Shown piece after piece: positions 11 to 32,213 of a DNA stretch of 33,938 nt. Below the pieces are notes generated by a model. The model did not search any database. It was not told where the DNA came from and worked only from the letters and a program-made list of their open reading frames with translations. The translations under genes and the position numbers were made by a program. This DNA comes from a bacterium (GTDB taxonomy: Bacteria > Bacillota > Clostridia > Oscillospirales > Acutalibacteraceae): NCBI GenBank assembly GCA_963625735.1, contig CAVFUV010000001.1, forward strand, positions 1 to 33,938, written 5' to 3'. The first letter of the stretch is position 1, and the number at the start of each line of letters is the position of its first letter.

Positions 11-226
11 AGTGTGGAGTGTGGAGAGTGGAGTGTGGAGTGGATTGTTGCTGTCAGATTGTTCACAAAAATCGAAAAACCGTGAAAGATTCTTAGCACC
101 AAAAGTATCACTGAAGCCGTGTTACAGTGGCATTTTTTTGTTATGTATTCTTATTCGCAGTTCTCAGATTCCTACGATTTAACCCCGGCGAAGCAACTCC
201 ACTCTCCACACTCCACTCTCCACTCT
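11..226. repeat. inverted GTGGAGW heptad arms (11-43 and 197-226) flanking ~150 bp
   Basis: AGTGTGGAGTGTGGAGAGTGGAGTGTGGAGTGG faces ACTCCACTCTCCACACTCCACTCTCCACTC. A GCGAAGC box lies at 188-194. Confidence 0.8.
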
Positions 227-5952: not shown

Positions 5953-6075
5953 TTTTTTAACGTGATATAAAGGTAAAATAATGTTAAAAAAGGGGGTTTG
6001 CCGGTGAGTGTGGAAGCGAGCGGCTCAGCCCGCCGGTACGGCAAAGCCCCGCAGTGACACGAAAATCTGCCTTCT

Positions 6076-6138
6076 GCGAAGCTTATAATCCAAGGCACTC
6101 CGTGCCTTCCGAAATTGTTAATTGTTAATTGTTAATTG
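6076..6138 (-). repeat. half element: AATTAAC heptads - stem-loop - GGATTATAAGCTTCGC
   Basis: Plus strand reads GCGAAGCTTATAATCC, then AAGGCAC-TCC-GTGCCTT, then CCGAAA, then (TTGTTAA)x3. Confidence 0.9.
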
Positions 6139-8236
6139 AAAATTTTACCGTACTGTCTGCCGGCGCATTGACAACCTCAAACCTATCATGCCAGTAAATC
6201 CCGAGGTTCTTTTTAAGCTCATCGCCGTCCTCAACAAGCACCTTTACATTGGCGTCGAACTGTGTTGTGTTCTGAATATACAGAACGCCGTCCCTAAGCC
6301 ATGCGTTTACATGATCGCATACGCTTACAATGTCACGTGACGGCACGACATACACACCCGGCATATCGGTCCATGTGAGCATCATGGCGACATGCGGCCA
6401 CGAGCAGGCACCGAAAATGTTTCCGCCGACATTCTTTTCGCCCTCCCAGTCGGAGGTGTTGACACGTTCGCATATTTCGGAATCCTTAAGCGGCACGCCC
6501 TTGCTTGTCATAACAGGCCTTTCGGGGTACGACACCGTCTGCGGCATAAAGTGGGCAATCTGTCTTGCCAGGTCAAGATATCTCTTGTCACCTGTCGCAC
6601 GGAATATTTTGATAAATGAAATGGGGCTTGATGTGCAAAGACCCGGTGCGGAGTGCTTGTTCTGAACATTTGCCCATACAGAACCGCAGGCCTTCACATC
6701 CAGTCTGCCCATCTCGCTTGTTTTCGGAAATTCATAATCATACGACTCAACCCAGCTTGCGACCTGATTTGCGGAGTCGATCATGCATTTAAGCCATCTG
6801 TCGCCGTCTGTTTCGTACAGATTTACAAAACTCTCCATAAGTGCCGCAGAGCTTTCGGAGTCGGGAGCCTGCAGTATTTCGCCGGGACCGCCTGTTGTAA
6901 CACCCTTAAGCGTTGCGTTCTTATAGAAGAACTCGCCTATCTCCCTCGCCGTGATAAGATACTTTTCGTCACCCGTCACATTGTACGCTGCACAGAGTCC
7001 CGCGGGAGCCATTGCACCGCTTGTGGAGTTGCCGACAACGATTTCACCTGTTTCGGTGTTGATAAACTGACCGAGCTGACCGTATCTGTTCCACAGAGTG
7101 ACAACCGCATCCGCCGCCGCTTTCGCGCTTTCACGGATTTTTTCGGGAACATCAATACCCATTTTTTCAAGTGCGCGGATTTCTCTGTAAAGGAAATATA
7201 TCATATCAACGTGCTTTCTTATAAGCACCATGTTGTATTTTCCGTCAAAGCTTGAGAATGCGTCGTCATAGACCTTGCCGTTGCTGTCGGCACAGCCGTA
7301 GAACCATCCGAGTTTGCTCTGCTCACGCGCGGCAAAGAGAAGTGTCTTTATGCTTCTCTCTTTTGTAAGAGCATCGCCCTCGCAGATTCCCGCAAGGCTT
7401 GTCATGCCGCCGCCGACCCAGCCCGCCTGCCATACACCGAAATGTGATGTTCTGCGGCCGTCCTGCGCGTCAAGAGTGTACATTTCAAGATTTTCGAGAT
7501 AATGCGTATCGTTAATCTGCTTTTCGGCAAGCTCCCAGAAGTGCGAAAACGGAAGATTGGCATGTGCCGTCTCGCTCGAAAAGTCATATCTTCTCGCAAA
7601 GAACTGTGAGAAAAGCTCCGGAATATCTTCGCAGTCGGATACATATATCTTGTGCGGAATTGTCGTAACATCGCCGTTTTTTACACTTAAGGGCTTATCC
7701 ATTGAAGGATTTTCTCTGCATGAGGGTACACCGTCATACCAGTGATAGACAAGACGTCTTTTTGAGGGTGCTCTTAAGCGGATTATAAGGTTGTCGCCGA
7801 GCTGATCAAGCGACACGCCGTGATTTAAGCCGTGGTCGCCCTGATTAAAGAACAGCATGAACGACTTTTTCTCTTTTTTGTTAAGTATGCATACGCACGG
7901 AGTTGACATATCACCGGTTGTGACATCCATAAAGGAGTCGCCGGTCTTGTTAAGGCGAGGCACCTGTGTCATGCGTGTCGGAACATCGACACCGAGCTCA
8001 TCCTCGTGGAACATTGGTGCGTAGTGACGGGGAACAGCCTCAAAACGGTTGCCGTCATAGGCACACGCCGGAATCATTATGTATGTGTCGGCAATCGGTG
8101 CGTTGAGTTTGAAATCAACCCAATAGCCTGCGTCGTCATTGTCGCAAAGTGCGGTAAAACGGGTCTCTTCCTCATTGAAAACAACACGAGTGCCGTTTTC
8201 GGGTCCGGAAAAACCCCTTGTAATTTCATAGGACAT
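6125..8236 (-). CDS. large cytoplasmic protein, possibly (alpha/alpha)6-barrel glycoside-hydrolase-like; function uncertain
   Basis: Long ORF with no signal peptide. I prefer the ATG at 8236 (MSYEIT...) after an AGGAGTGAG SD over 8275. The last codons and the TAA lie inside the heptad array at 6115-6138. Confidence 0.7.
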   Translation of the reverse strand: MSYEITRGFSGPENGTRVVFNEEETRFTALCDNDDAGYWVDFKLNAPIADTYIMIPACAYDGNRFEAVPRHYAPMFHEDELGVDVPTRMTQVPRLNKTGDSFMDVTTGDMSTPCVCILNKKEKKSFMLFFNQGDHGLNHGVSLDQLGDNLIIRLRAPSKRRLVYHWYDGVPSCRENPSMDKPLSVKNGDVTTIPHKIYVSDCEDIPELFSQFFARRYDFSSETAHANLPFSHFWELAEKQINDTHYLENLEMYTLDAQDGRRTSHFGVWQAGWVGGGMTSLAGICEGDALTKERSIKTLLFAAREQSKLGWFYGCADSNGKVYDDAFSSFDGKYNMVLIRKHVDMIYFLYREIRALEKMGIDVPEKIRESAKAAADAVVTLWNRYGQLGQFINTETGEIVVGNSTSGAMAPAGLCAAYNVTGDEKYLITAREIGEFFYKNATLKGVTTGGPGEILQAPDSESSAALMESFVNLYETDGDRWLKCMIDSANQVASWVESYDYEFPKTSEMGRLDVKACGSVWANVQNKHSAPGLCTSSPISFIKIFRATGDKRYLDLARQIAHFMPQTVSYPERPVMTSKGVPLKDSEICERVNTSDWEGEKNVGGNIFGACSWPHVAMMLTWTDMPGVYVVPSRDIVSVCDHVNAWLRDGVLYIQNTTQFDANVKVLVEDGDELKKNLGIYWHDRFEVVNAPADSTVKFSINN

Positions 8237-8283
8237 TTTTTCTCTCACTCCTAATCTTATCATCTTGCGGTACATTTTTTAAT

Positions 8284-8462
8284 TCATAATGTAGAATGCA
8301 TAATGCATAATTTCGGAAGACACTGCGTGTCTTGAATTATATTGCTTCGCTAATATGGAACTATTTTTTTAACACTAATTCACATTTCGCGAAGCTGTAT
8401 AAATTCAAAACGCTTTAGCGTTTTCCTTCATTATGCATTCTTAATTCTGCATTCTACATTTT
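8284..8462. repeat. complete palindromic element (two inverted half elements)
   Basis: Left half is GCATAAT/GTAGAAT heptads, AAGACAC-TGC-GTGTCTT and AATTATATTGCTTCGC. The centre is about 37 nt. Right half is GCGAAGCTGTATAAATT, AAAACGC-TTTA-GCGTTTT and the reverse-complement heptads. Confidence 0.9.
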
Positions 8463-9646: not shown

Positions 9647-9755
9647 AAATTAACAATTAACAATTAATAATTTACAATTTCGGAAGACACTGCGTGTCTT
9701 GTATTGAAAAAGCTTCGCAAAACAACTCCACACTCCACTCTCCACACTCCACACT
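9647..9755 (+). repeat. half element followed by ACTCCAC heptads
   Basis: Modules in order are TTAACAA-type heptads, CGGAAGACAC-TGC-GTGTCTTG, TATTGAAAAAGCTTCGC and (ACTCCAC)x4. Confidence 0.9.
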
Positions 9756-11969: not shown

Positions 11970-12203
11970 ATGAAAGAATTACTTGAAGCACTTGCGAAAA
12001 GCCTTGTTGACAATCCCGAGGCAGTCGAGGTTACGGCAGATGAGAAAAACGAAAACGGTGTTACCGTTCTTCATCTCAAGGTCGCCGAGAACGACATCGG
12101 CAGAGTAATCGGCAAGCAGGGCAAAATAGCAAAGGCTATCAGAACTGTCATGCGCTCAGCGGCAAACAGACAGAACGAAAAGGTTCAGGTTGAAATCAAC
12201 TGA
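11970..12203 (+). CDS. KH-domain RNA-binding protein (YlqC/UPF0109)
   Basis: GRVIGKQGKIAKAIRTV is a KH GXXG motif. Its position after rpsP is conserved. Confidence 0.9.
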   Translation: MKELLEALAKSLVDNPEAVEVTADEKNENGVTVLHLKVAENDIGRVIGKQGKIAKAIRTVMRSAANRQNEKVQVEIN

Positions 12204-12221
12204 ACAAGGCAGAATGAAATC

Positions 12222-12252
12222 GGGCACTCCGCTTTATGCGGGGGCCTTTTTC
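12222..12252 (+). terminator. probable terminator after the KH-protein gene
   Basis: Imperfect GGGCACTCCGC/GCGGGGGCC hairpin followed by T5. Confidence 0.5.
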
Positions 12253-12430
12253 AATTAGCAATTAGCAGTTAGCAATTGGCAATGGAAGGGACCGGAGGTC
12301 AGGGACCGGAGGTCAGGGGCCGGGGGCCGGGGGCTTCGCAAGAGGTTAACTGAAAAAATTGTCTTGTCGGGTTCGAGACACTTTTTAAATTAACAATTGG
12401 CAATGAGAAAAAGTGACCGGTATCCGTTTG
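12252..12430 (+). repeat. element: AGCAATT heptads - (GGGACCGGAGGTCA)x2 - GGGGCCG heptads - GCTTCGCAAGAGG - hairpin - partial second unit
   Basis: Read directly from the sequence. It lies between the KH-protein terminator and the flippase 3' fragment. Confidence 0.85.
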
Positions 12431-12475
12431 CAGGGCTTTGCTGTGAGCGAAATGTACCGCTATTTGTGGTTTGAT

Positions 12476-12544
12476 GATATTTTAATGCTCCCGATGGGAA
12501 GAAAAATAGCAAAAGGTCTTGCAAAATTCGGGCTTATAGAGTAA
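12476..12544 (+). pseudogene. orphan 3'-terminal fragment (last 22 codons + stop) of the MurJ/SpoVB-like flippase gene
   Basis: It translates to DILMLPMGRKIAKGLAKFGLIE*. The 72 nt at 12476-12547 match the reverse complement of 20606-20677 at 70/72 positions. Similarity stops abruptly upstream. Confidence 0.8.
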
Positions 12545-12583
12545 AATGTTTTTTGTATCGCGTTAATGGGGAGGACAAAGATA

Positions 12584-13456
12584 ATGGTTGATAATTTTAC
12601 ATTCAAAGACAGCTATAATATGGATGACCTTGTTGAGATTATCGCAATCCTTCGTGCTCCCGGCGGTTGTCCGTGGGATGCCGAGCAGACGCATGAAAGC
12701 ATAAAGAAGAATTTTATCGAAGAGACATACGAAGTAATTGAGGCAATAAACAAAAAAAGTCCCGAAATGCTCCGTGAAGAGCTGGGTGATGTTCTTCTTC
12801 AGGTTGTTCTTCATACACAGATGGCGAGCGAAAACAACGCGTTTACATTTGACGATGTATGTGACGAGATATGCAAAAAGCTTATAATCCGTCATCCGCA
12901 TGTATTCGGTGATGTTACCGTCAGCGACACGGGCGAGGTGCTTAAAAACTGGGACGCGATAAAAATGCAGACCAAGAAGCAGAAAAGCGTGACGGAGAGC
13001 ATAGATTCCATTCCTCGTGAGCTGCCGTCACTTATGCGCGCACAGAAGGTTCAGCATAAGGCCGCAAAGGCGGGCTTTGACTGGGACAATATCGGCGGCG
13101 CACTCGACAAGGTGAGCGAGGAAGCAAGCGAAGTCAAAGAGGCTCTTGCCGAAAATGACAAGGAGCATGTGTCCGAAGAAATCGGCGATCTGCTTTTCGC
13201 CTGCGTGAATGTCTGCCGTTTTGCCGATACGGACGGTGAGGAAGCGCTTACAGCCGCAACGGATAAATTCGCCGCTCGCTTTGCGATAGTCGAACGCCTT
13301 GCAAAAGAACGTGGGATAGATATGAAGACAGCAACTATTGAGACGCTGGATGAGATGTGGGACGAAGCGAAGAAGCAATTGGCAATGGAAAAGGGGTCAG
13401 GTTCCGGGGGCCGGGGGTCGGGGAAGACACTGCGTGCCTTGGATTGTATGGCTTAG
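12584..13456 (+). CDS. mazG: nucleoside triphosphate pyrophosphohydrolase MazG, with repeat-derived C-terminal extension
   Basis: Two tandem MazG domains (EETYEVIEAI, ELGDVLLQV, EEASEVKEAL, EIGDLLFACV). The ATG at 12584 follows a GGGGAGG SD. The last 27 codons are read from the intergenic repeat element. Confidence 0.9.
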   Translation: MVDNFTFKDSYNMDDLVEIIAILRAPGGCPWDAEQTHESIKKNFIEETYEVIEAINKKSPEMLREELGDVLLQVVLHTQMASENNAFTFDDVCDEICKKLIIRHPHVFGDVTVSDTGEVLKNWDAIKMQTKKQKSVTESIDSIPRELPSLMRAQKVQHKAAKAGFDWDNIGGALDKVSEEASEVKEALAENDKEHVSEEIGDLLFACVNVCRFADTDGEEALTAATDKFAARFAIVERLAKERGIDMKTATIETLDEMWDEAKKQLAMEKGSGSGGRGSGKTLRALDCMA

Positions 13457-13501
13457 CTTTTTGCGAAGCCGACTCCACACTCCACACTCCACACTCCACA
13501 C
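13374..13501 (+). repeat. element copy 1 (AGCAATT/GGGGNCG heptads - stem-loop - box hairpin - ACTCCAC x4), overlapping the mazG 3' end
   Basis: Modules in order are AGCAATTGGCAATGG, GGGGTCAGGTTCCGGGGGCCGGGGGTCGGGG, AAGACAC-TGC-GTGCCTT, GGATTGTATGGCTTAGCTTTTTGCGAAGCC and ACTCCAC heptads. Confidence 0.9.
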
Positions 13502-13712
13502 TTTTAAACAGCTGACCGCTTAATTAAATTTGACAAAACGTCTTATGGTATTAGCAATCAGCAAATGGAAAAAGGGGTCGGGGTCGGGCCGGGAAAACAC
13601 TGCATACCTTGGATTATATGGCTTAGCTTTTTGCGAAGCCGACTCCACACTCCACACTCCACACTTTTAAACAGCTGACCGCTTAATTAAATTTGACAAA
13701 ACGCCTTATGGC
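13448..13712 (+). repeat. ~165-bp tandem duplication spanning element 3' half plus the hup upstream region
   Basis: The segment ATGGCTTAGCTTTTTGCGAAGCCG(ACTCCAC)nACTTTTAAACAGCTGACCGCTTAATTAAATTTGACAAAACGYCTTATGG occurs twice (13448-13548 and 13618-13711). The copies differ by one heptad and one SNP. Confidence 0.9.
13551..13665 (+). repeat. element copy 2 (decayed stem-loop, ACTCCAC x3)
   Basis: Same module order as copy 1. The stem-loop is degenerate (AAAACAC-TGC-ATACCTT). Confidence 0.85.
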
Positions 13713-13739
13713 TTTTGAAATATACAGGAGGAAACAAAA

Positions 13740-14012
13740 ATGAATAAGACAGAGCTTGTAGCTGCCGTTATGGAAAAATCGGGTCTCGATAAGAAGGCCG
13801 CAGATGCAGCGGTAAAGGCAACATTTGAAGCAATCACAGACGCTCTTGCAAAGGGCGATAAGGTTCAGCTCATCGGTTTCGGTACTTTTGATGTTCGTGA
13901 AAGAGCCGCAAGAGAAGCTATAAACCCCCAGACCAAAGAAAAGATTGCCGTTGAAGCCTGCAAGGTTCCCGGATTCAAGGCCGGCGCAGCACTTAAGAAC
14001 GCTGTAAAATAA
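13740..14012 (+). CDS. hup: DNA-binding protein HU
   Basis: MNKTELV...GFGTFDVRERAAREAINPQT is canonical HU. AGGAGG SD upstream and terminator downstream. Confidence 0.97.
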   Translation: MNKTELVAAVMEKSGLDKKAADAAVKATFEAITDALAKGDKVQLIGFGTFDVRERAAREAINPQTKEKIAVEACKVPGFKAGAALKNAVK

Positions 14013-14033
14013 TTTAATTCGTAAGAACAATTT

Positions 14034-14071
14034 CGCACCCTCGACGTAATGCCGGAGGTGCGGTTTTGTTT
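14034..14071 (+). terminator. intrinsic terminator of hup
   Basis: CGCACCCTC...GAGGTGCG hairpin followed by GTTTTGTTT. Confidence 0.8.
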
Positions 14072-14073
14072 AA

Positions 14074-14146
14074 TGCAGAATTAAGAATGCATAATGCATA
14101 ATGTCGGAAGTCCGCAAGACTTCCGAAATTGTTAATTGTTAATTAT
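14074..14146. repeat. minimal element: GCATAAT heptads - stem-loop GGAAGTC-CGCAA-GACTTCC - TTGTTAA heptads
   Basis: Read directly from the sequence, immediately after the hup terminator. Confidence 0.85.
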
Positions 14147-14168
14147 AAACAGCCGGGAGGAATTTATA

Positions 14169-14654
14169 GTGTCAATAGAAAAAGTTACGGCGTATTTTCG
14201 TTCGATGAACGCCGAGGATAAGATAAAGGTATTTGATGTATCGTCCGCAACAGTCGCTTTGGCGGCAAAGGCACTCGGCACAGAAGAGGCACGCATTGCC
14301 AAAACCATGTCATTTACAGTTAACGGCACACCAGTGCTTATAGTAACGGCAGGCGATACCAAAATCGCGAACTCAAAATTTAAGACATATTTTCACGTAA
14401 AGGCGAAAATGCTGACGGCCGAGGAGCTGACGGAATACGTCGGCCACGCTCCGGGCGGGGTCTGCCCGTTTGCCCTTAAAGACGGATGCAAGGTCTATCT
14501 TGATGAATCGCTTAAAAGATTTGATATTGTCTATCCCGCGGCGGGCAGCGCGAATTCCGCAGTTGAGCTGACACCCGACGAACTCGAAAAATATTCCAAC
14601 CCCGTCGGCTGGGTTGATGTTTGCAATATTGTTGAAAAAACTGCCGAATCGTAA
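14169..14654 (+). CDS. YbaK/EbsC-family aminoacyl-tRNA editing domain protein
   Basis: Motifs are AKTMSF and GGVCPF. I prefer the GTG at 14169 after a GGGAGGA SD. The ATG at 14136 lies inside a TTGTTAA heptad array. Confidence 0.75.
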   Translation: MSIEKVTAYFRSMNAEDKIKVFDVSSATVALAAKALGTEEARIAKTMSFTVNGTPVLIVTAGDTKIANSKFKTYFHVKAKMLTAEELTEYVGHAPGGVCPFALKDGCKVYLDESLKRFDIVYPAAGSANSAVELTPDELEKYSNPVGWVDVCNIVEKTAES

Positions 14655-14669
14655 TCTACCGAATCGTAC

Positions 14670-14698
14670 TTGACTAAATTTTTCTGTTGTCGTATACT
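14670..14698 (+). promoter_or_regulatory. candidate promoter of the DUF234 ATPase gene
   Basis: TTGACT-17 nt-TATACT. Confidence 0.5.
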
Positions 14699-14730
14699 GA
14701 ATACGGATAAATTTTTTCAGGGGTGATTTC

Positions 14731-16134
14731 ATGTTTATCGGTCGTGAAAAAGAGCTTAATATTCTGAACAGACTGTATGAGTCCGACAGATTTGAATTTG
14801 CCGTTATATACGGTCGCCGCCGTGTTGGCAAAACAGCACTTATAAATAAATTTCTTGACGGAAAAAAAGCCGTTTATTTTACCGGGGTTGAGAGCAACGC
14901 AAAACAAAATCTTGAAAACCTGAGCAAATGTATTGCCGAATATAACGGCGGAATTCCTGCTGATGCCGTGTTTTCATCTGTACAGTCGGCTGTTGAATTT
15001 TTATTTGAGCTTGCCGAAGACAGACGAATTGTTTTTGTAATTGACGAATATCCGTATTTCGCACGTGCGGAAAAAAGTCTCGCGTCCACCTTGCAGATGC
15101 TTATTGATAAGCATAAAGATTCGTCTAAGCTCATGCTCATTCTCTGCGGTTCGTCAATGTCTTATATGGAAGATAATGTTCTTGCGTATAAGTCTCCGCT
15201 GTACGGCAGACGGACGGCACAGCTTAAAATCGAGCCCTTTGATTTTGAAACTGCCTGCCGCTTTCTCGGCAACTTCTCCGCTGAGGACAAAGCTCTGCTT
15301 TACGGTGCTGTCGGCGGAACACCGCAGTATCTGGCACAGATAAACAACAAATTAAGTGTTGAAGATAACATAAAAAATACGTTTCTGAATGCATCGTCAT
15401 TTCTGTATGAAGAGCCTGTTAATCTCTTAAAACAGGAGGTTCGTGAACCGTCTCTTTACACGGCGATTATCGGTGCGGTTGCGTCCGGTGCGGTAAGAAT
15501 GAAGGAAATTTCAGTTAAAATCGGCGAGAATACAAGCAACAGTTCCTCTTACATAAAAAATCTTATATCGCTCGGAATACTTAAAAAGGAATCTCCATAC
15601 AACGAAAAAGAGTCAAAAAGAACGATTTATGCAATTGAAGACAATATGTTCCGCTTCTGGTATCGTTTTGTTTTGAATAACAGTTCGCTTATTTCACGAG
15701 GAGCGGCAGATCTTGTATACAATCGAATAAAGCCGTTTTTATCGGACTACATGGGAAAGGTATTTGAGGATATCTGCACCGAGTATCTGTGGAAGCTTCT
15801 TCTGACAGGAAAAAGTCCCGTAATGTTTGAATCTCTCGGACGTTGGTGGGGAAATGACCCGAAAGAAAAGTGTCAGACAGAGATTAATATAATGGGTGAG
15901 CAGGATAAAAACACCGCCGTTTTCGCAGAGTGCAAGTGGACAAACGAAAAGGTTGATGTCAAAGTCCTTGATACACTTATAAAGCGCAGTGAACTGTTCT
16001 CATATAAAAATACATTTCTGTTTCTTTTCGCAAAAACAGGTTTTACACAGAGCTGTATTGATAAGGCGGAGAGAATGGGAAATGTAAGACTTGTGAAATA
16101 TGAAGAGATGGCACAATTAGAAATTAGAAATTAG
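14731..16134 (+). CDS. AAA-type ATPase with DUF234 C-terminal domain (archaeal-ATPase family)
   Basis: N-terminus is FIGREKEL. Walker A is YGRRRVGKT and Walker B is VFVIDEYPY. The last six codons and the TAG lie inside the heptad array at 16114-16145. Confidence 0.85.
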   Translation: MFIGREKELNILNRLYESDRFEFAVIYGRRRVGKTALINKFLDGKKAVYFTGVESNAKQNLENLSKCIAEYNGGIPADAVFSSVQSAVEFLFELAEDRRIVFVIDEYPYFARAEKSLASTLQMLIDKHKDSSKLMLILCGSSMSYMEDNVLAYKSPLYGRRTAQLKIEPFDFETACRFLGNFSAEDKALLYGAVGGTPQYLAQINNKLSVEDNIKNTFLNASSFLYEEPVNLLKQEVREPSLYTAIIGAVASGAVRMKEISVKIGENTSNSSSYIKNLISLGILKKESPYNEKESKRTIYAIEDNMFRFWYRFVLNNSSLISRGAADLVYNRIKPFLSDYMGKVFEDICTEYLWKLLLTGKSPVMFESLGRWWGNDPKEKCQTEINIMGEQDKNTAVFAECKWTNEKVDVKVLDTLIKRSELFSYKNTFLFLFAKTGFTQSCIDKAERMGNVRLVKYEEMAQLEIRN

Positions 16135-16256
16135 CAATTAGCAATGAGTGGAAGTGACCGGTATCCGGTGGGCAGTATCCGGTGGCTGAGGAAGGCACAC
16201 AGTGCCTTGGATTTATAAAGCTTCGCAAAAGGTAAGCTAATGATGAGCTTCGCAAA
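16114..16256 (+). repeat. element: AATTAGN heptads - GACCGGTATCCGGTGG-type repeats - stem-loop - GGATTTATAAAGCTTCGC - second GCTTCGC
   Basis: Stem-loop is AAGGCAC-ACA-GTGCCTT at 16192-16208. The element overlaps the ATPase stop codon. Confidence 0.9.
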
Positions 16257-16314
16257 GTGTAGGCTTTTTGGGCGTTGCCGGCACTTCAGCCTTTCAAATC
16301 ACAATACAAAAAAG

Positions 16315-16360
16315 CATTAAAAAATTGCCGAATCGTAAACCGCCTGATTACGATTCGGCA
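16315..16360 (-). terminator. intrinsic terminator of the Cthe_2159-family gene
   Basis: 14-bp stem TTGCCGAATCGTAA/TTACGATTCGGCAA followed by a T-run on the minus strand. Confidence 0.85.
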
Positions 16361-16377
16361 AATTGTTTATATGGTTT

Positions 16378-18063
16378 TTATGTGTTCGAGGTGTTCTGCC
16401 CGCCGCTGTTCCCATTATCATCGGGCTTCTGCGGTCTGCCGCTCTCGTCCGTTTCGGGCTCCTGCCCGACCTGTCCGCCGGGGTTGCCGCCCTGACCGCC
16501 CGAGGGAATTTCGGGCTGACCGTTCTCGTTTGTCTCGGGTTCAAAGCTGCCGTCGGGCTTATTGCCACCCTGTCCGCCGCCCTGTCCGGGGTCGCCGCCC
16601 ATGTTGCCGCCCATACCGCTCTCGCCGTATATAAAGCCGCTGAGGGTAATTTCCGTACTGTTTGTGCCGTTTGATACCGTGAATGTTCCGTTCTCGGTCA
16701 TGCCGGCGCAGCTTATCACAACACAGTCAAAATTCTTTTTCGATGTCGCGGAACCGAGTGTCTCTCCGGCGTCGTTTTTGATTTCAACGGTATCGCCCGC
16801 CTTGCCGGAAATGTTGACAAGTGCCACGCCCTGATTTTCAGCCGCATTGAAGTTCTCCGCCATGCCGACAGAGCCGAACGCGAATATCGTGCCGCCCGTA
16901 ACCTTCGCAGTGGTGTTGCCGTCGCCGTAGTCAATCGCACCGTCACCGCCCGACACGGGGCCGTATACCGTAAGCGTACCGCCGCTGACATACAGGTCGC
17001 CGTTTGAGTCAACACCGTCGCCCGAAGCGTCAATTGTTATCTCGCCGCCGCTTATATTGATATAAGCCTCGCTGTCGCCCTGTCCGGGGTCGCTTCCCGT
17101 GTCGCCGCCTGCCGCGTTTATGCCGTCGTCGCTCGATATTATGTCTATCGTGCCGCCGGAAATATCAACCGTGTGACCCTCAATCCCTTCATAGGACTGC
17201 TCTATATTTATTGTGCCGCCTAAAATCTTAAGCGAAGCCGATGAGTGCATACCGTCGTCTCCGGCGTTTATCGTGTAGGTGCCGTCCTCAATATAGACAA
17301 AGCCCAGGTCGTCATCCTCGTCATTGTCGCCGTGGATACCGTCCTTGCCCGAAGTGAGATTGAATGTGCCGTTCATTATGCGGACGTCGTCCTTGCCTGC
17401 CAGACAGTGTTTTTCGGCGTTGACGGTATATGTGCCGCCTGTTACACACAAAGTGTCCTTCGATACAATACCGTGACCTGTCTCACTTGAAATTGTAATA
17501 CTGCCCGAGCCGTTGAATGTAAGGTCATCCTTCGAGAATACGCACGCATCTATATTGTTGTCGTCAATTGCGACAAAGTCCCCGGTGTTTGTCAGAGTGT
17601 TCTCGGTGTTCGGAGCGAGTGTTATGACAACCTTGTCGGCACTCTTGACATATACCGCCGCCGTGGTGCTTTTTGAGATATTCACACCGGCGAAAATAAT
17701 ATGAACCTTGTCGGAATCGTCTGCGTCAACAACGATACTGCCGTCCGAGAGTGTGCCCTTGAAGATATATGTGCCCTCGTCGCTTATCGTAATGTTATTG
17801 CCGTCAATTGTTACCGTGCCGTTTTTGCATTTTGTGCCGTTGTCGGCAAGAGTTATCACGGTGTCGTTGTTCTCGTCGTAGCCGACATTTACGTCAAAGC
17901 TTGTGAACATATCTGAAATACCTGTGTTTTCGTCGTATGCGGCGGCATCCGTCGCAATTGCCGATGAAGTCGTGTCGGTCGAGTTGCCGACTGAACAGCC
18001 GGCGAATGACAGAACGGAAATTACCGCCGTTATTATGCATACCGTTTTCTTAAAGTTCATCAT
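16378..18063 (-). CDS. Cthe_2159-family (DUF4353) beta-helix carbohydrate-binding lipoprotein with G/P/Q-rich tail
   Basis: Lipobox is FAGC. Repeated motifs of the type GTYxIxG...DGI... are present. I prefer the ATG at 18063 (GGGAG SD). It overlaps the upstream gene by 14 nt. Confidence 0.8.
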   Translation of the reverse strand: MMNFKKTVCIITAVISVLSFAGCSVGNSTDTTSSAIATDAAAYDENTGISDMFTSFDVNVGYDENNDTVITLADNGTKCKNGTVTIDGNNITISDEGTYIFKGTLSDGSIVVDADDSDKVHIIFAGVNISKSTTAAVYVKSADKVVITLAPNTENTLTNTGDFVAIDDNNIDACVFSKDDLTFNGSGSITISSETGHGIVSKDTLCVTGGTYTVNAEKHCLAGKDDVRIMNGTFNLTSGKDGIHGDNDEDDDLGFVYIEDGTYTINAGDDGMHSSASLKILGGTINIEQSYEGIEGHTVDISGGTIDIISSDDGINAAGGDTGSDPGQGDSEAYINISGGEITIDASGDGVDSNGDLYVSGGTLTVYGPVSGGDGAIDYGDGNTTAKVTGGTIFAFGSVGMAENFNAAENQGVALVNISGKAGDTVEIKNDAGETLGSATSKKNFDCVVISCAGMTENGTFTVSNGTNSTEITLSGFIYGESGMGGNMGGDPGQGGGQGGNKPDGSFEPETNENGQPEIPSGGQGGNPGGQVGQEPETDESGRPQKPDDNGNSGGQNTSNT

Positions 18064-19445: not shown

Positions 19446-19550
19446 TGGTTTTACACCGCTTTCTCTGTTTGATGAGATAATACGATGAGGACTTTAATCG
19501 GAATTTAAAAAGATTACAGAGTTGTAATATTTTTAAGGTTTGTGAAAAAA

Positions 19551-20070
19551 GGGCGAGCGAAGCGAGCCTGAAGCCCGAGCCGACAGGCGAGGGCATGTCG
19601 CGAGGAGCGACAGCGACGAGCGAAGCCGAGCGAAGCGAGGCAAAGCCCGAGGAGGCGGCGTAAGCCGACGACGAGGGCACGGGCGGCGAGGAGAGCGACA
19701 GCGTCGACGAGCCGCAGGACGCGACGACGAACACCTGCCAACGGCAGGCGTAAGGAGGAGTGTCTCCCCGAGCGAAGCAGATTTGTGAGGGGCTGCCCGT
19801 GGCTGCCCTCATAAATCTGCTGAGCGGAGGGTGCCGTCCGGAATGTGGCTTCCGGCAGTACGCCATACGAAAGGCATGTCATTTTACTTGAAAGGAATGT
19901 CACTCCCGGGCGGCAAAGCGACCCGGATTTCGCAGCAAGCTTGCAATCAAGCAAAAAGCTTGCCTCTTGCGTTAGCTTACAATCCAAGTCCGCAGGACTT
20001 CCTTGTTTTCCCGGCCCCCGACCCCCGGTCCCCGGCCCCTGTCCAATTGCTAACTGCTAATTGCTGATTA
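19551..20070 (-). repeat. largest element copy: AGCAATT + GGGGNCG heptads - stem-loop - box - structured module - T-depleted GCGAAGC-rich tract
   Basis: On the plus strand, heptads lie at 20010-20068, stem-loop AAGTCC-GCA-GGACTT at 19986-20000, hairpins at 19777-19820 and 19935-19963, and the GCGARGC-rich tract at 19551-19740. Confidence 0.8.
19777..19820. other. 15-bp-stem hairpin (GCAGATTTGTGAGGG ... CCCTCATAAATCTGC) in the 716-bp spacer
   Basis: Direct complementarity with one G-T pair. The 14-nt loop contains the GGCTGCC direct repeat. Confidence 0.7.
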
Positions 20071-22414: not shown

Positions 22415-22443
22415 ATAATACAGCTTGCTTTAGAATATATCAA
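22415..22443 (-). promoter_or_regulatory. candidate promoter of the flippase gene
   Basis: TTGATA-17 nt-TATTAT on the minus strand, abutting the phased array. Confidence 0.5.
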
Positions 22444-22622
22444 AGAACTTTCAAAACTTTTAAAATGATTTTAAAAGTTTCAAAGAGATTTTCAAAGTTT
22501 CAAAGAGATTTTCAAAGTTTCAAACAAATTTTCAAAAGTTTCAAAGAGATTTTAAGAGTTTCAAACACTTTTTCAAAACTTTCAAACGATTTTCAGAAGT
22601 TTTCAAATCATTTCAAAACTTA
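22441..22622. repeat. ~17 tandem ~10-bp units (TTTCAAAGNN / TTTTCAAAG), helically phased T/A-tract array
   Basis: TTCAAA cores recur every 9-11 bp from 22450 to 22610. The array lies directly upstream of the flippase -35 and begins at the helicase stop codon. Confidence 0.9.
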
Positions 22623-24745: not shown

Positions 24746-24951
24746 GTTAGCGGTTAGCAAGGAGCAGTGTCAATGTAGAATGTAGAATGCAGAATGCAGA
24801 ATTTCGGAAGACACTATGTGTCTTGAATTATATAGCTTCGCAATCATAAAAACATTTTTCTTACAAATAAACTAACATTCAGTGGAGCTTTATAATCCAA
24901 AACGCCTTGGCGTTTTCCTTCACTGCTCCTTGCTCCTTGCTCCTTGCTCAC
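24746..24951. repeat. palindromic element with GCAAGGAGCAG outer arms and ATGTAGA/ATGCAGA inner heptads
   Basis: Arms are 24757-24769 (GCAAGGAGCAGTG) and 24921-24951 (CACTGCTCCTTGC...). Stem-loops are AAGACAC-TAT-GTGTCTT and AAAACGC-CTTG-GCGTTTT. Boxes are GAATTATATAGCTTCGC and GGAGCTTTATAATCC. Confidence 0.9.
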
Positions 24952-28344: not shown

Positions 28345-28544
28345 TAAAAAGTGAGCAAGGAGCAGGGAGCAGGGAGCAGTTAGGCATAGTGTGGAGCTTT
28401 ACAAAGTGTGGAGTGTGGAGAGTGGAGTGTGGAGTTACAGCTTCGCGAACGGTAAATGCAGTAAAAGAGCTTTAATGTAAGCGGAGCTTTATAATCCAAA
28501 ACGCTTTGGCGTTTTCCTTCATTGTTAATTGTTAATTGTTAATT
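28345..28544. repeat. element: GAGCAGG heptads - GTGGAGT heptads - GCTTCGCGAA - centre - GGAGCTTTATAATCC - stem-loop - TTGTTAA heptads
   Basis: Read directly from the sequence. Stem-loop is AAAACGC-TTTG-GCGTTTT at 28498-28515. Confidence 0.9.
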
Positions 28545-30094: not shown

Positions 30095-30290
30095 CAAAAT
30101 TATTTTGTTAAATCAAGTATTTCCGCAAAATCTGTTTGTTAATTTTTTGCGGAAATTTTGCAGATTTCAAATTTCAGCAAAATCATTTTGCAGATTTTTT
30201 GTTAATTCGCAATTTTTGCAAAGTCACTTTGCAGAAATTTTGCGGAAATTTTGTTAATTTAAGATTTTTGCAAAATTACCGTCAGTTTTC
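30095..30290. repeat. ~10-11-bp phased array of TTTTGC(A/G)GA / TTTTGTTAAT units with internal inverted repeats
   Basis: TTTTG cores lie at about 30104, 30134, 30146, 30157, 30186, 30197, 30214, 30228, 30238, 30249 and 30266. TTCCGCAAAA (30121) and TTTTGCGGAA (30146) form a perfect 10-bp inverted repeat. Confidence 0.85.
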
Positions 30291-30362: not shown

Positions 30363-30460
30363 GCGAAGCTTTATAATGCAAGACACGCAGTGTCTTCCTC
30401 GGTGCCCCGGCCCCCGACCCCCGGTCCCCGGCCCCTTTTCATTGCTAATTGCCAATTGCC
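30363..30460 (-). repeat. element: GCAATTN heptads - GGGGNCG heptads - stem-loop - box, overlapping the DUF4091 gene 3' end
   Basis: Plus strand reads GCGAAGCTTTATAAT, then AAGACAC-GCA-GTGTCTT, then CCCCGGN heptads, then ATTGCYA heptads. Confidence 0.9.
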
Positions 30461-32049: not shown

Positions 32050-32103
32050 TATATTTACCTCCGATATATGTATCGACAAAAAAGTTGTGAAAAACCGGGA
32101 AAA

Positions 32104-32213
32104 GTGTGGAGTGTGGAAAGTGGAGTGTGGAGTTGGCTACGCAAAAGGCGAAGCTATATAATTCAAAACGCTTCAGCGTTTTCCTCAGCCCCCGGCCCCT
32201 GCCCCCGGGCCCT
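32104..32213 (-). repeat. element: GTGGAGT heptads - GGCTACGCAAAAGGCGAAGC hairpin - TATATAATT - stem-loop - GCCCCNG heptads
   Basis: Stem-loop is AAAACGC-TTCA-GCGTTTT at 32164-32181. The element lies in a divergent promoter region. Confidence 0.9.

What the first reader, a model, noticed from the sequence alone, without database searches (positions are those of the whole stretch)
16114..16145. Outer AT-rich heptad arrays act as all-frame stop cassettes; four genes terminate inside them
A 7-nt unit that contains a stop triplet and is repeated three or more times places that stop in all three reading frames, because 7 mod 3 = 1.
The gene-proximal heptad types all contain TAA or TAG. AATTAGC gives TAG, and its complement gives TAA. 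AATTAAC/TTGTTAA gives TAA on both strands. GCATAAT gives TAA and ATGTAGA gives TAG. The inner GC-rich types (GGGGCCG, GTGGAGT, GAGCAGG) contain none.
These cases are directly visible:
- The DUF234 ATPase ends QLEIRN-TAG inside CAATTAG AAATTAG AAATTAG CAATTAG. The TAGs at 16118, 16125, 16132 and 16139 cover all three frames.
- The 716-aa protein ends SINN-TAA inside (AATTAAC)x3 at 6115-6138.
- DUF4091 ends AIGN-TAG inside GGCAATTGGCAATTAGCAAT at 30441-30460.
- The ylqC-proximal array at 12252-12285 carries TAG three times.
This pattern fits an element that inserts into or abuts ORF 3' ends and caps any reading frame after a few codons.
Basis: partly seen in the sequence, partly recalled or inferred. 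Interest (0 to 1): 0.7.

Follow-up and report, generated by a model that had tools for sequence, protein, structure and literature searches.

The report
Heptad-repeat elements that cap gene ends
A 32-base run of the 7-base unit CAATTAG, the outer part of a very abundant heptad-and-hairpin repeat element in this gut Clostridia lineage, has overrun the last codons of an ATPase gene and now supplies its stop codon. This effect is real, but it looks like a side-effect of an AT-rich 7-base repeat rather than a purpose-built stop cassette.

Summary
The array exists as described. CAATTAG-type heptads at 16114-16145 place TAG in all three frames, and the DUF234 ATPase stops at 16132. Two more window genes (716-aa, GH123/DUF4091) also stop inside such arrays. 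The ylqC/KH gene does not. MazG runs through a decayed array.

The arrays are modules of an apparently undescribed mosaic repeat: heptad arrays, a 7-bp hairpin with compensatory changes, and a TTGGATTATAAAGCTTCGC box. It saturates intergenic DNA here and in two Acutalibacteraceae/'Ruminococcus' MAGs.

Orthologs lacking the element end differently, so native C-termini were replaced. In about 470 kb of related DNA, 24 of 319 long ORFs stop in arrays, never more than 20 nt in.

The 'cassette' reading fails its own test:
- Stop-bearing heptads are no commoner than unit composition predicts.
- Stop density is the same at 5' and 3' gene ends.
- Stopless arrays (GAGCAAG, ACTCCAC) are equally gene-proximal.
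- The all-frame-stop property was already noted for TAACTGA heptamers.

Best reading: slippage-prone heptad arrays on a REPIN/STRR-like element, whose overlap with gene ends is tolerated because the frames close quickly.

The parts
14731..16134 (+). DUF234/ATPase_2 gene. Its last 6-7 codons (…A-QLEIRN) and its TAG stop (16132-16134) are encoded by the heptad array.
   Evidence: ORF. Pfam ATPase_2, DUF234 and Mrr_cat. C-terminus compared with 120 homologs and with L002/L093.
16114..16145 (+). Outer AT-rich heptad array (CAATTAG/AAATTAG, 4.5 units). TAG falls in all three frames. This is the reported feature.
16146..16191 (+). Inner GC-type heptads (GTGACCG / GTATCCG / GTGGGCA alternating, effective period 14), with no stops.
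   Evidence: The same module occurs at 2680-2715.
16192..16208 (+). Hairpin 1: AAGGCAC-ACA-GTGCCTT, the conserved 7-bp stem of the element family.
   Evidence: Family-wide covariation: 97.6% of cells paired and 3 of 7 pairs with compensatory changes. Stem classes are listed.
16207..16226 (+). Conserved box TTGGATTTATAAAGCTTCGC.
   Evidence: This 19-mer was the pattern used to recover related loci.
16218..16319 (+). GCTTCGC-repeat / second-hairpin module and the right-hand part of the element. It has no counterpart in the relatives L002/L093.
   Evidence: Homology with L093 stops at 16110 and resumes at 16320.
16325..16361 (.). Flanking bidirectional terminator-like hairpin shared with L002/L093. 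It is not part of the element, and it shows that the element lies between the gene and its terminator.
6113..6144 (-). CAATTAA array (AATTGTT on the + strand) holding the TAA stop (6125-6127) of the 716-aa gene, which ends …TVKF-SINN*.
30439..30460 (-). CAATTGG/CAATTAG array holding the TAG stop (30445-30447) of GH123/DUF4091, which ends …ELVE-AIGN*.
13375..13456 (+). Counter-example. A decayed stopless array (GCAATTGGCAATGG) plus GC heptads and hairpin is translated as a 25-aa MazG extension that ends at a TAG in hairpin 2.
12248..12285 (+). CAATTAG array that starts immediately after the KH/ylqC terminator T-run. No gene ends in it.
24920..24949 (-). Stopless outer array (GAGCAAG in the incoming sense) starting 5 nt after the native TAA of the GH2 gene.

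Best explanation
The 16114-16145 array is the outer module of one copy (about 16111-16319) of a mosaic interspersed repeat. From the outside in, the element has one or more ~32-nt arrays of 7-nt units drawn from a small vocabulary (CAATTAG/CAATTAA, xAATGCA, GAGCAAG, GGGGCCG/GTGGTCA, GTGGAGT). Then come a 7-bp hairpin kept by compensatory changes, a TTGGATTATAAAGCTTCGC box and further modules. Copies are often arranged as inverted doublets. Copies fill intergenic DNA on both the 5' and 3' sides of genes. The arrays behave as slippage-prone long SSRs and change in 7- or 14-nt steps between strains. Whole elements duplicate, delete and swap modules in place. Where an element, or a later deletion or slippage event, reaches into the last codons of a gene, the native stop is lost. 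Because 7 is not a multiple of 3, any unit containing TAA or TAG closes all three frames within 21 nt. The protein therefore only exchanges a few C-terminal residues, and the variant is nearly neutral and persists. Arrays without stops can only sit after an intact native stop, or else they produce longer read-through tails, as in MazG. On this reading the stop-cassette behaviour is an arithmetic and compositional by-product filtered by purifying selection, not a demonstrated adaptation. Shown: the anatomy, the hairpin covariation, the 7-nt indels, the replaced C-termini and the lack of stop enrichment. Inferred: the order of events (insertion versus encroachment), near-neutrality, and the unknown copying mechanism.
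For: Arrays number 26 in the window against about 1.2 expected. Density is 4.1-5.8 per 10 kb in the window and the CAZTWO MAG, and 2.9 in the CAVFPQ MAG, against 0.25 in control loci. Hairpin 1 is 97.6% paired, has 76 cells with double compensatory changes, and slid controls pair at only 19-47%. Most indels between strains that are 99% identical are 7- or 14-nt steps inside arrays. Tandem element copy number differs between strains. Replaced or extended C-termini are shown. Across related loci, 24 of 319 ORFs stop in arrays, and ten that were checked are ordinary Pfam-supported genes. Overlaps run from 1 to 20 nt and are spread over all entry phases, while stopless GAGCAAG arrays begin 0-9 nt after the stop in 7 of 8 cases, the eighth at 34 nt. 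Stops are not enriched beyond composition, and stop density does not depend on context. The same property was noted for TAACTGA heptamers in PMC4679880. Heptamer arrays close to or overlapping stop codons and varying between related species are reported for Xanthomonas and Nostoc in PMC4692102.
Against: CAATTAx arrays do face gene 3' ends more often than 5' ends (39:19, p=0.012), which a purely passive model does not predict. Array length is held near 4.5 units (mode 32-35 nt), which is unlike free slippage. In several places the junction between unique DNA and the array is at the same nucleotide in two species although the modules differ: after the GH2 stop, after the HU terminator, and at the GH123 and MazG ends. 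That could reflect targeting rather than selection-defined boundaries. No mobilising enzyme, target-site duplication or clean empty site was found. The 'empty' DUF234 site in L093 still contains CAATTAA, AAAGCTT and GAATTAA fragments. The composition test has few independent families (10-15).
Confidence: 0.57

Rival explanations
1. Selected stop cassette. The outer AT-rich arrays evolved, by selection at the level of the element, to close every reading frame. Insertions into gene ends are then harmless and the element fixes more often.
For: The main outer family, CAATTAG/CAATTAA, carries stops on both strands, and xAATGCA carries them only on the strand an incoming gene would read, with a 61:8 orientation bias. 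CAATTAx arrays are biased to 3' ends at 39:19. Fourteen such arrays overlap ORF ends, and all close the frame within 20 nt.
Against: Stops are not enriched once unit composition is controlled: 8 of 10 families against 7.9 expected, and 153 of 253 arrays against 146.6 expected. Stops per unit are identical at 5' ends, where no frame needs closing. About one fifth of outer arrays (GAGCAAG, GTGGAGT) have no stop. The orientation bias is a fixed part of the element's structure, so it counts as few independent events. Decayed arrays are tolerated, as in MazG.
Confidence: 0.15
2. Functional cis-element. The heptad arrays are multivalent binding platforms on RNA or DNA, for example one cold-shock or KH-type protein per 7 nt, or a nucleoid protein. 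Together with the hairpin they tune mRNA stability, termination or translation of neighbouring genes. Stops are incidental.
For: The unit vocabulary is small and conserved and the array length is constrained near 4.5 units. The hairpin is under structural selection. Families show positional bias: CAATTAx at 3' ends and ACTCCAC on the sense strand before gene starts. The element lies between the DUF234 stop and its terminator, so it is probably part of the 3' UTR. PMC4679880 discusses CspB binding one protein per heptamer.
Against: There is no Rfam match. The whole DUF234 copy folds no better than shuffled sequence (z=-0.64). Promoter-like and terminator-like signals are not enriched. Modules at orthologous sites differ between close species, which fits poorly with gene-specific regulation. 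No expression data are available.
Confidence: 0.2
3. Stop-codon-targeted insertion. The element integrates at TAA/TAG (a TA[AG] target or microhomology with its own CAATTA[AG] end), so gene stops coincide with element termini by mechanism.
For: The element begins exactly at or after the native TAA of GH2 in the window, the CAZTWO MAG and L093. Several GAGCAAG termini read TAA-AAAGT-GAGCAAG. The L093 site has CAATTAA where the window has the CAATTAG array.
Against: The flank of 57 GAGCAAG termini is variable and only about 12 abut a gene end. Overlaps with ORFs are spread over 1-20 nt rather than fixed at the stop. About a third to a half of the arrays face gene starts or terminators instead. 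No target-site duplication was seen.
Confidence: 0.07
4. Chance or artefact. Ordinary AT-rich intergenic DNA, assembly errors or mis-called ORF ends give the impression of genes ending in repeats.
For: AT-rich sequence is stop-rich by composition.
Against: Arrays are about 20 times above expectation. The same arrays appear in independent assemblies (L001, L094, L095). The genes are well supported and their tails differ from those of orthologs.
Confidence: 0.01

Closest known systems
TAACTGA heptamer direct repeats of marine Beggiatoaceae, cyanobacteria and Bacteroidetes (MacGregor 2015, PMC4679880)
   Same: These are dispersed, mostly intergenic arrays of 2-6 copies of one heptamer. [quoted passage not shown] Function and spread are unknown.
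   Different: There is a single unit type, most copies lie just upstream of start codons, and no associated hairpin or box module or multi-family mosaic is described. The taxa and the unit sequence are different.
Cyanobacterial STRR heptanucleotide repeats and other heptameric long SSRs: Calothrix/Nostoc STRR; Xanthomonas GGGAATC and Nostoc GGGGAYT (PMC4692102); Geobacter metallireducens four-copy GGGACCG elements (PMC2700814); the heptamer excess among bacterial SSRs (Mrazek 2007, cited in PMC4692102)
   Same: They have several heptad families per genome, about 4-5 units per array and intergenic location. They lie close to the upstream gene's 3' end and are sometimes over the stop codon. Length and sequence vary between close relatives at conserved sites. 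The Geobacter unit GGGACCG is close to the inner arrays here. IMG/VR contigs with CAATTAG, CAATTGG and CTGACCG arrays show inverted arrays around a central spacer or hairpin.
   Different: Here the arrays are fixed modules of a composite element with a covarying hairpin and a conserved 19-nt box. The host is a Clostridia lineage (Acutalibacteraceae). Statements about STRR itself rest on my own knowledge; Mazel 1990 and Elhai 2008 were not readable here.
REP / BIME / REPIN elements of proteobacteria (PMC3116915, PMC3733652)
   Same: Both are very abundant intergenic short palindromes whose stems are kept by compensatory changes. Both show mosaic combination with other short motifs and inverted doublets as the common unit.
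   Different: There is no GTAG or CGTC tag next to the hairpin. Heptad arrays are not part of BIMEs. No RAYT transposase has been identified.
MIRU (mycobacterial interspersed repetitive units) and other repeats that rewrite gene ends, such as Correia elements and RPEs (own knowledge)
   Same: They are intergenic repeats that overlap the stop or start codons of flanking genes or alter protein termini without destroying the gene.
   Different: MIRUs are 40-100-bp units carrying in-phase small ORFs for translational coupling. The units here are 7 nt and act only by closing the frame.

Membership tests
Heptanucleotide long-SSR / STRR-type arrays | Head-to-tail copies of a 7-nt unit, typically 3-6 copies | tested here: met
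   TRF gives period 7 and 4.4 copies at 16115-16145, and about 25 such arrays in the window. Median array length is 31 nt with a mode at 32-35 nt.
Heptanucleotide long-SSR / STRR-type arrays | The same units dispersed at many, mostly intergenic, sites of the genome | tested here: met
   There are 353 arrays from a small unit vocabulary in 470 kb. Window arrays lie outside coding sequence except for at most 20 nt at gene ends or in over-extended ORF starts.
Heptanucleotide long-SSR / STRR-type arrays | Unit-number polymorphism between close relatives (slippage) | tested here: met
   Indels of 7 or 14 nt occur inside arrays between the window and L094/L095, which are 99% identical.
TAACTGA-type all-frame-stop heptamers | The unit contains a stop triplet, so three or more copies close all frames, and ORFs end within the first units | tested here: met
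   TAGs fall at 16118, 16125, 16132 and 16139. Fourteen CAATTAx arrays overlap ORF ends, and no overlap exceeds 20 nt. The unit sequence differs from TAACTGA, so this is an analogue and not the same family.
REP / REPIN | Short imperfect palindrome with its stem conserved through compensatory changes | tested here: met
   97.6% of cells are paired and 3 of 7 pairs covary.
REP / REPIN | Inverted doublets as the repeated unit | tested here: met
   Window doublets lie at 8315/8412 and 24806/24900, and there are many in CAVFPQ loci. Single units and tandem units are also common.
REP / REPIN | GTAG or CGTC tetranucleotide tag flanking the palindrome | tested here: not met
   The flanks are (T/G)TCGG or (G/A)AAGG on the 5' side and GGATTATA on the 3' side.
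REP / REPIN | A cognate RAYT (Y1 HUH transposase) gene in the genome | not tested
   Only element-containing fragments of the MAGs were available and no whole-genome protein search was possible.
MITE | Terminal inverted repeats plus a target-site duplication, and a related autonomous IS | tested here: inconclusive
   Doublets are large imperfect palindromes. However, no duplication was seen at the DUF234 site or at GAGCAAG termini, and no autonomous copy is known.
Intrinsic terminator | GC-rich stem followed by a T-run | tested here: not met
   In 12000-16500, hairpin 1 copies that are followed by the TTGGATT box were not called. Only the box-less hairpin at 14104-14126, followed by the AATTGTT array, was. 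The tail of hairpin 1 is GGATTATA.
Any Rfam RNA family | A covariance-model match | tested here: not met
   There were 0 hits at gathering thresholds over the whole window. The only hit at E<=5 in 12200-16400 was a chance miRNA match.

The most novel reading that the evidence does not exclude
The heptad-hairpin elements are a distinct and still unrecognised class of mobile or templated DNA. Its small heptad 'alphabet' (CAATTAG, CAATTGG, CTGACCG/GTGGTCA, GGGACCG) and its layout of arrays, hairpin and inverted arrays recur in unrelated lineages: Clostridia MAGs, IMG/VR contigs of 27-62% GC, and Geobacter. On this reading a shared, unidentified machinery writes about 4.5-unit arrays at gene boundaries, and CAATTAx ends are pre-adapted to land on gene 3' ends harmlessly by closing all frames.
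Probability: 0.12. Interest if true: 0.8.

Novelty: new variant of a known kind. Interest (0 to 1): 0.45.

Why it matters
There are three consequences.

1. Annotation and protein evolution. In this lineage about 7% of the sampled genes have a C-terminus and stop codon written by a hypervariable repeat. Strain-specific tails arise without loss of function, for example SINN* against SINIRIKN*, or a 25-aa MazG extension.

2. A new system for an old question. This is a compact, very dense example of bacterial heptanucleotide repeats, whose origin and role have been open since the cyanobacterial STRR reports. Here the repeats are tied to a covarying hairpin and a conserved box, which gives handles for finding the responsible enzyme or binding protein.

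3. A caution. A 7-nt unit with a stop triplet looks designed but is expected from composition alone.

Tried and rejected
- Promoter reading of the TATAAT inside the box. No usable -35 was found, and promoter-like sites are not enriched (6 against 6.4 expected). The elements face gene starts and gene ends alike.
- Terminator reading of hairpin 1. There is no T-run and the scan did not call it.
- Structured-RNA reading of the whole DUF234 copy. Its fold is no better than shuffled sequence (z=-0.64), and Rfam gives nothing.
- TA(A) target or target-site duplication. The flanks of 57 GAGCAAG termini are variable.
- Similarity to annotated plasmids or phages. None was found.
- The core box in viral contigs. 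There was only one, chance, hit.
- Literature search for the exact arrays or units. No bacterial paper was found. Elhai 2008 could not be read.
- Treating L002/L093 as a pristine empty site. This is doubtful, because heptad-like and box-like fragments remain there.
- Single hits to the 19-mer box in other phyla. They lie in coding DNA without hairpin or heptads, so I used them as controls.
- A Pfam screen of all 319 ORFs for transposases. I did not run it, because the output format would hide single hits.
Full report
**1. The observation**

Window 16114-16145 reads CAATTAG AAATTAG AAATTAG CAATTAG CAAT. TRF reports period 7, 4.4 copies and 95% matches. TAG starts at 16118, 16125, 16132 and 16139, which are 2, 0, 1 and 2 mod 3, so all three frames are closed.

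Three genes in the window stop inside such arrays:
- The ORF 14731-16134 is a DUF234/ATPase_2 protein with an Mrr_cat-like end. It stops at 16132-16134 after …EEMAQLEIRN.
- The 716-aa ORF (minus strand) stops at 6125-6127 inside the AATTGTT array 6113-6144.
- GH123/DUF4091 (minus strand) stops at 30445-30447 inside the array 30439-30460.

The fourth case is not a termination. The KH/ylqC gene ends at 12203 and has its own terminator at 12227-12243, and the CAATTAG array begins right after that terminator's T-run.

Period-7 arrays are not a chance feature. There are 26 in the window against a mean of 1.2 (maximum 4) in 100 Markov-1 simulations, and periods 8-10 are almost absent.

**2. What the arrays belong to**

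Every array is a module of one repeat family. In a common orientation the modules run as follows:
- One or more outer arrays. On the strand that reads toward the hairpin these are CAATTAG, CAATTAA, xAATGCA or GAGCAAG.
- Often an inner GC-type array, GGGGCCG or GTGACCG/GTATCCG.
- A short linker, (T/G)TCGG or (G/A)AAGG.
- A 7-bp hairpin.
- The box TTGGATTATA(A/T)AGCTTCGC.
- GCTTCGC-containing hairpins and spacers.
- Either an ACTCCAC array or a second, inverted unit. Doublets lie at 8280-8460 and 24772-24949.

The DUF234 copy spans about 16111-16319: the array, GC heptads at 16146-16191, the hairpin at 16192-16208, the box at 16207-16226 and a right-hand part. It lies between the gene and a conserved bidirectional terminator-like hairpin at 16325-16361.

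The hairpin occurs in four main stem classes (AAGACAC, AAGGCAC, AAAACGC, AAGTCC) with free loops. On 74 distinct copies, 97.6% of cells pair and 3 of 7 pairs show double compensatory changes (76 cells). Slid controls pair at 19-47%. The stem is therefore selected as a structure, in ssDNA or RNA.

Rfam has no match. Annotated plasmids and phages have none either.

**3. Distribution**

The hits were dominated by two MAGs:
- 'Uncultured Ruminococcus sp. binchicken_co354_49' (CAZTWO01; 59 loci, 314 kb).
- 'Acutalibacteraceae bacterium H07627-L1' (CAVFPQ01; 16 loci, 122 kb).

Single hits in other phyla lie in coding DNA without hairpin or heptads, and I used them as controls.

Array density per 10 kb is 4.1 in the window, 5.8 in CAZTWO, 2.9 in CAVFPQ and 0.25 in the controls. 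The unit vocabulary is small and its orientation relative to the hairpin is fixed. Array length peaks at 32-35 nt, about 4.5 units, in all families.

**4. Were native C-termini replaced?**

- **DUF234.** Among the 120 homologs listed, the commonest tails run 2-4 residues past the conserved …MGNVxLVxYxE[IM]. The nearest relative (92% identity; L002 and L093) ends …YEDM-FN* and lacks the element. Its 37 nt between ATG and the shared terminator flank correspond to 209 nt in the window. The window tail AQLEIRN is array-coded. The site in the relative still contains CAATTAA, AAAGCTT and GAATTAA fragments, so it may be a decayed element rather than a pristine empty site.
- **GH123.** The window ends …ELVE-AIGN*. 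L096 (81% identity) ends …EIIN-AINN* and also has an array at the same junction (GCAATTAACAACTGA…). Element-free L097 (64% identity) ends …ALIKELA*.
- **716-aa protein.** The window ends …TVKF-SINN*. A 97%-identical relative ends …TVKF-SINIRIKN*. Element-free L099 ends …TVSVCLNIL*.
- **MazG.** Homology to 150 library representatives ends at query residues about 270-272 (…EAKKQ), within a few residues of their C-termini. The window adds 25 residues through a decayed array, the GC heptads and the hairpin. L093 adds SAVRNEQ and stops at the TGA of an AATGAGC array.

The tails really are repeat-derived.

**5. How general is it?**

With a simple greedy ORF call (at least 120 aa), 24 of 319 ORFs in the window plus the two MAGs have their stop inside an array. 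Ten that I checked are ordinary genes with Pfam domains reaching close to the C-terminus: an MFS transporter, an aldolase, an aspartokinase, a PTS EIIC, Sua5, a DEAD helicase, a GH3 and others.

- For CAATTAx arrays the overlaps run from 1 to 20 nt and are spread over all phases. This is the bound of 21 nt expected for a unit that carries one stop.
- Stopless GAGCAAG arrays start 0-9 nt after an intact stop in 7 of 8 cases, the eighth at 34 nt.
- xAATGCA arrays do not overlap genes because they usually lie inside other arrays or remnants of arrays.

**6. Is it a selected cassette?**

- Given each unit's base composition, a stop is expected in 60-100% of AT-rich heptads. Eight of 10 AT-rich families carry one against 7.9 expected (P=0.66), and 153 of 253 arrays against 146.6 expected.
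- Stops per unit are the same in arrays that overlap ORF ends (0.90), in other 3' arrays (0.97) and in arrays facing gene starts (0.91).
- Stopless families (GAGCAAG, GTGGAGT/ACTCCAC, GC arrays) are also outermost and gene-proximal.
- In the window the AT arrays face gene starts about as often as gene ends.

CAATTAx arrays face 3' ends 39:19 (p=0.012), unlike xAATGCA at 19:30 (Fisher p=0.004). The arrays are not fully independent, so this is only suggestive.

**7. Dynamics**

- Between strains that are 99% identical, most indels are 7- or 14-nt steps inside arrays.
- Whole elements vary in tandem copy number. There are two copies at 13375-13680 in the window against one in L094 and L095. There are two in L094 where the window has one at 6019-6144.
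- Between species (about 87-89% nucleotide identity), the junction between unique DNA and the repeat is at the same nucleotide while the modules differ. This holds after the GH2 stop, after the HU terminator T-run, and at the GH123 and MazG ends.

This pattern fits old insertions followed by slippage, recombination or conversion among copies, with boundaries set by selection on the flanking functional sequence. Targeted re-insertion cannot be excluded.

**8. Comparison with what is known**

- MacGregor (PMC4679880) stated the all-frame-stop property, and its consequence that ORFs end in the repeats, for TAACTGA heptamers. Thirteen sets there overlap upstream stop codons.
- Intergenic arrays of 4-5 heptamers that sit close to or over upstream stop codons and vary between close species are described for Xanthomonas and Nostoc (PMC4692102).
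- Geobacter metallireducens has 49 four-copy GGGACCG elements (PMC2700814).
- Hairpin doublets resemble REPINs (PMC3116915), but the GTAG/CGTC tag is absent and no RAYT is known here.
- CAATTAG arrays also occur in 17 IMG/VR contigs of 27-62% GC. Some carry several heptad families and inverted arrays around a central spacer or hairpin.

I found no description of this composite element or of these arrays in Clostridia.

**9. Verdict**

The effect, in which frames are capped and native termini replaced, is real and general in this lineage. The claim that the arrays 'act as cassettes' in an adaptive sense is not supported.

The underlying heptad-hairpin mosaic element appears to be an undescribed variant of known kinds of bacterial interspersed and heptanucleotide repeats. 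Its copying mechanism and any function remain unknown.

Noticed in passing
window 22440-22621: Complex AT-rich tandem repeat (periods 10, 20, 40 and 61; TTTCAAAACTTTCAAAAAGATTTTAAAAGTT) in the stretch between the MurJ-like gene's start (22381) and the UvrD stop (22620). It is conserved in L093 4449-4746 and differs by a 20-nt step in strain L094.
   Followed up: partly
window 30145-30253 (and L096 3250-3590): Repeats of 41 nt and 11 nt (TTTTGCAGAAAT / AATTTTGCAAAAATC) upstream of the SLFN_AlbA_2/HATPase_c_4 gene. They look like a regulator-binding array and are unrelated to the heptad elements.
   Followed up: no
window 197-226, 9725-9755, 13469-13502, 13639-13665, 28405-28435 (rc), 32103-32133 (rc): ACTCCAC arrays (CUCC-rich, like an anti-Shine-Dalgarno sequence) lie on the sense strand upstream of gene starts in 6 of 7 window cases. 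In the larger sample the bias was not evident (3:3).
   Followed up: partly
window 13375-13680; window 6019-6144 versus L094 1170-1600: Whole elements differ in tandem copy number between strains that are 99% identical. The tandem copies carry different hairpin stem classes, so they are not recent duplicates.
   Followed up: yes
window 12566-13456 (MazG): MazG carries a 25-aa element-encoded extension (LAMEKGSGSGGRGSGKTLRALDCMA). The ortholog in L093 ends in a different array-coded tail (SAVRNEQ).
   Followed up: yes
window 19540-19960: GC-rich stretch with GAGCGAAGC-type short repeats and a 147-aa ORF without a Pfam match. It is absent from the related genome L093, where heptad arrays follow directly.
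   Followed up: no
window 14071-14144: Minimal element form: xAATGCA array, single hairpin (GGAAGTCCGCAAGACTTCC), inverted AATTGTT array, with no TTGGATTATA box. It starts exactly after the HU terminator T-run. L093 has a different element at the same junction.
   Followed up: partly
L102, L106, L109, L111, L115, L116 (IMG/VR contigs): Dense multi-family heptad arrays (CAATTAG, CAATTGG, CTGACCG, CTAACCG, GAATTTA, CCTCCTG) occur in contigs of very different GC content, often as inverted arrays around a central spacer. The unit alphabet partly overlaps the one here.
   Followed up: partly
all arrays in the window, CAZTWO and CAVFPQ loci: Array length is sharply peaked at 32-35 nt (about 4.5 units) in every heptad family, with rare expansions up to 100 nt.
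   Followed up: partly
window 12287-12334: Period-14 array AGGGACCGGAGGTC that merges into GGGGCCG heptads. It differs by 13-14 nt between strains, and its unit resembles the GGGACCG four-repeat elements of Geobacter metallireducens.
   Followed up: no
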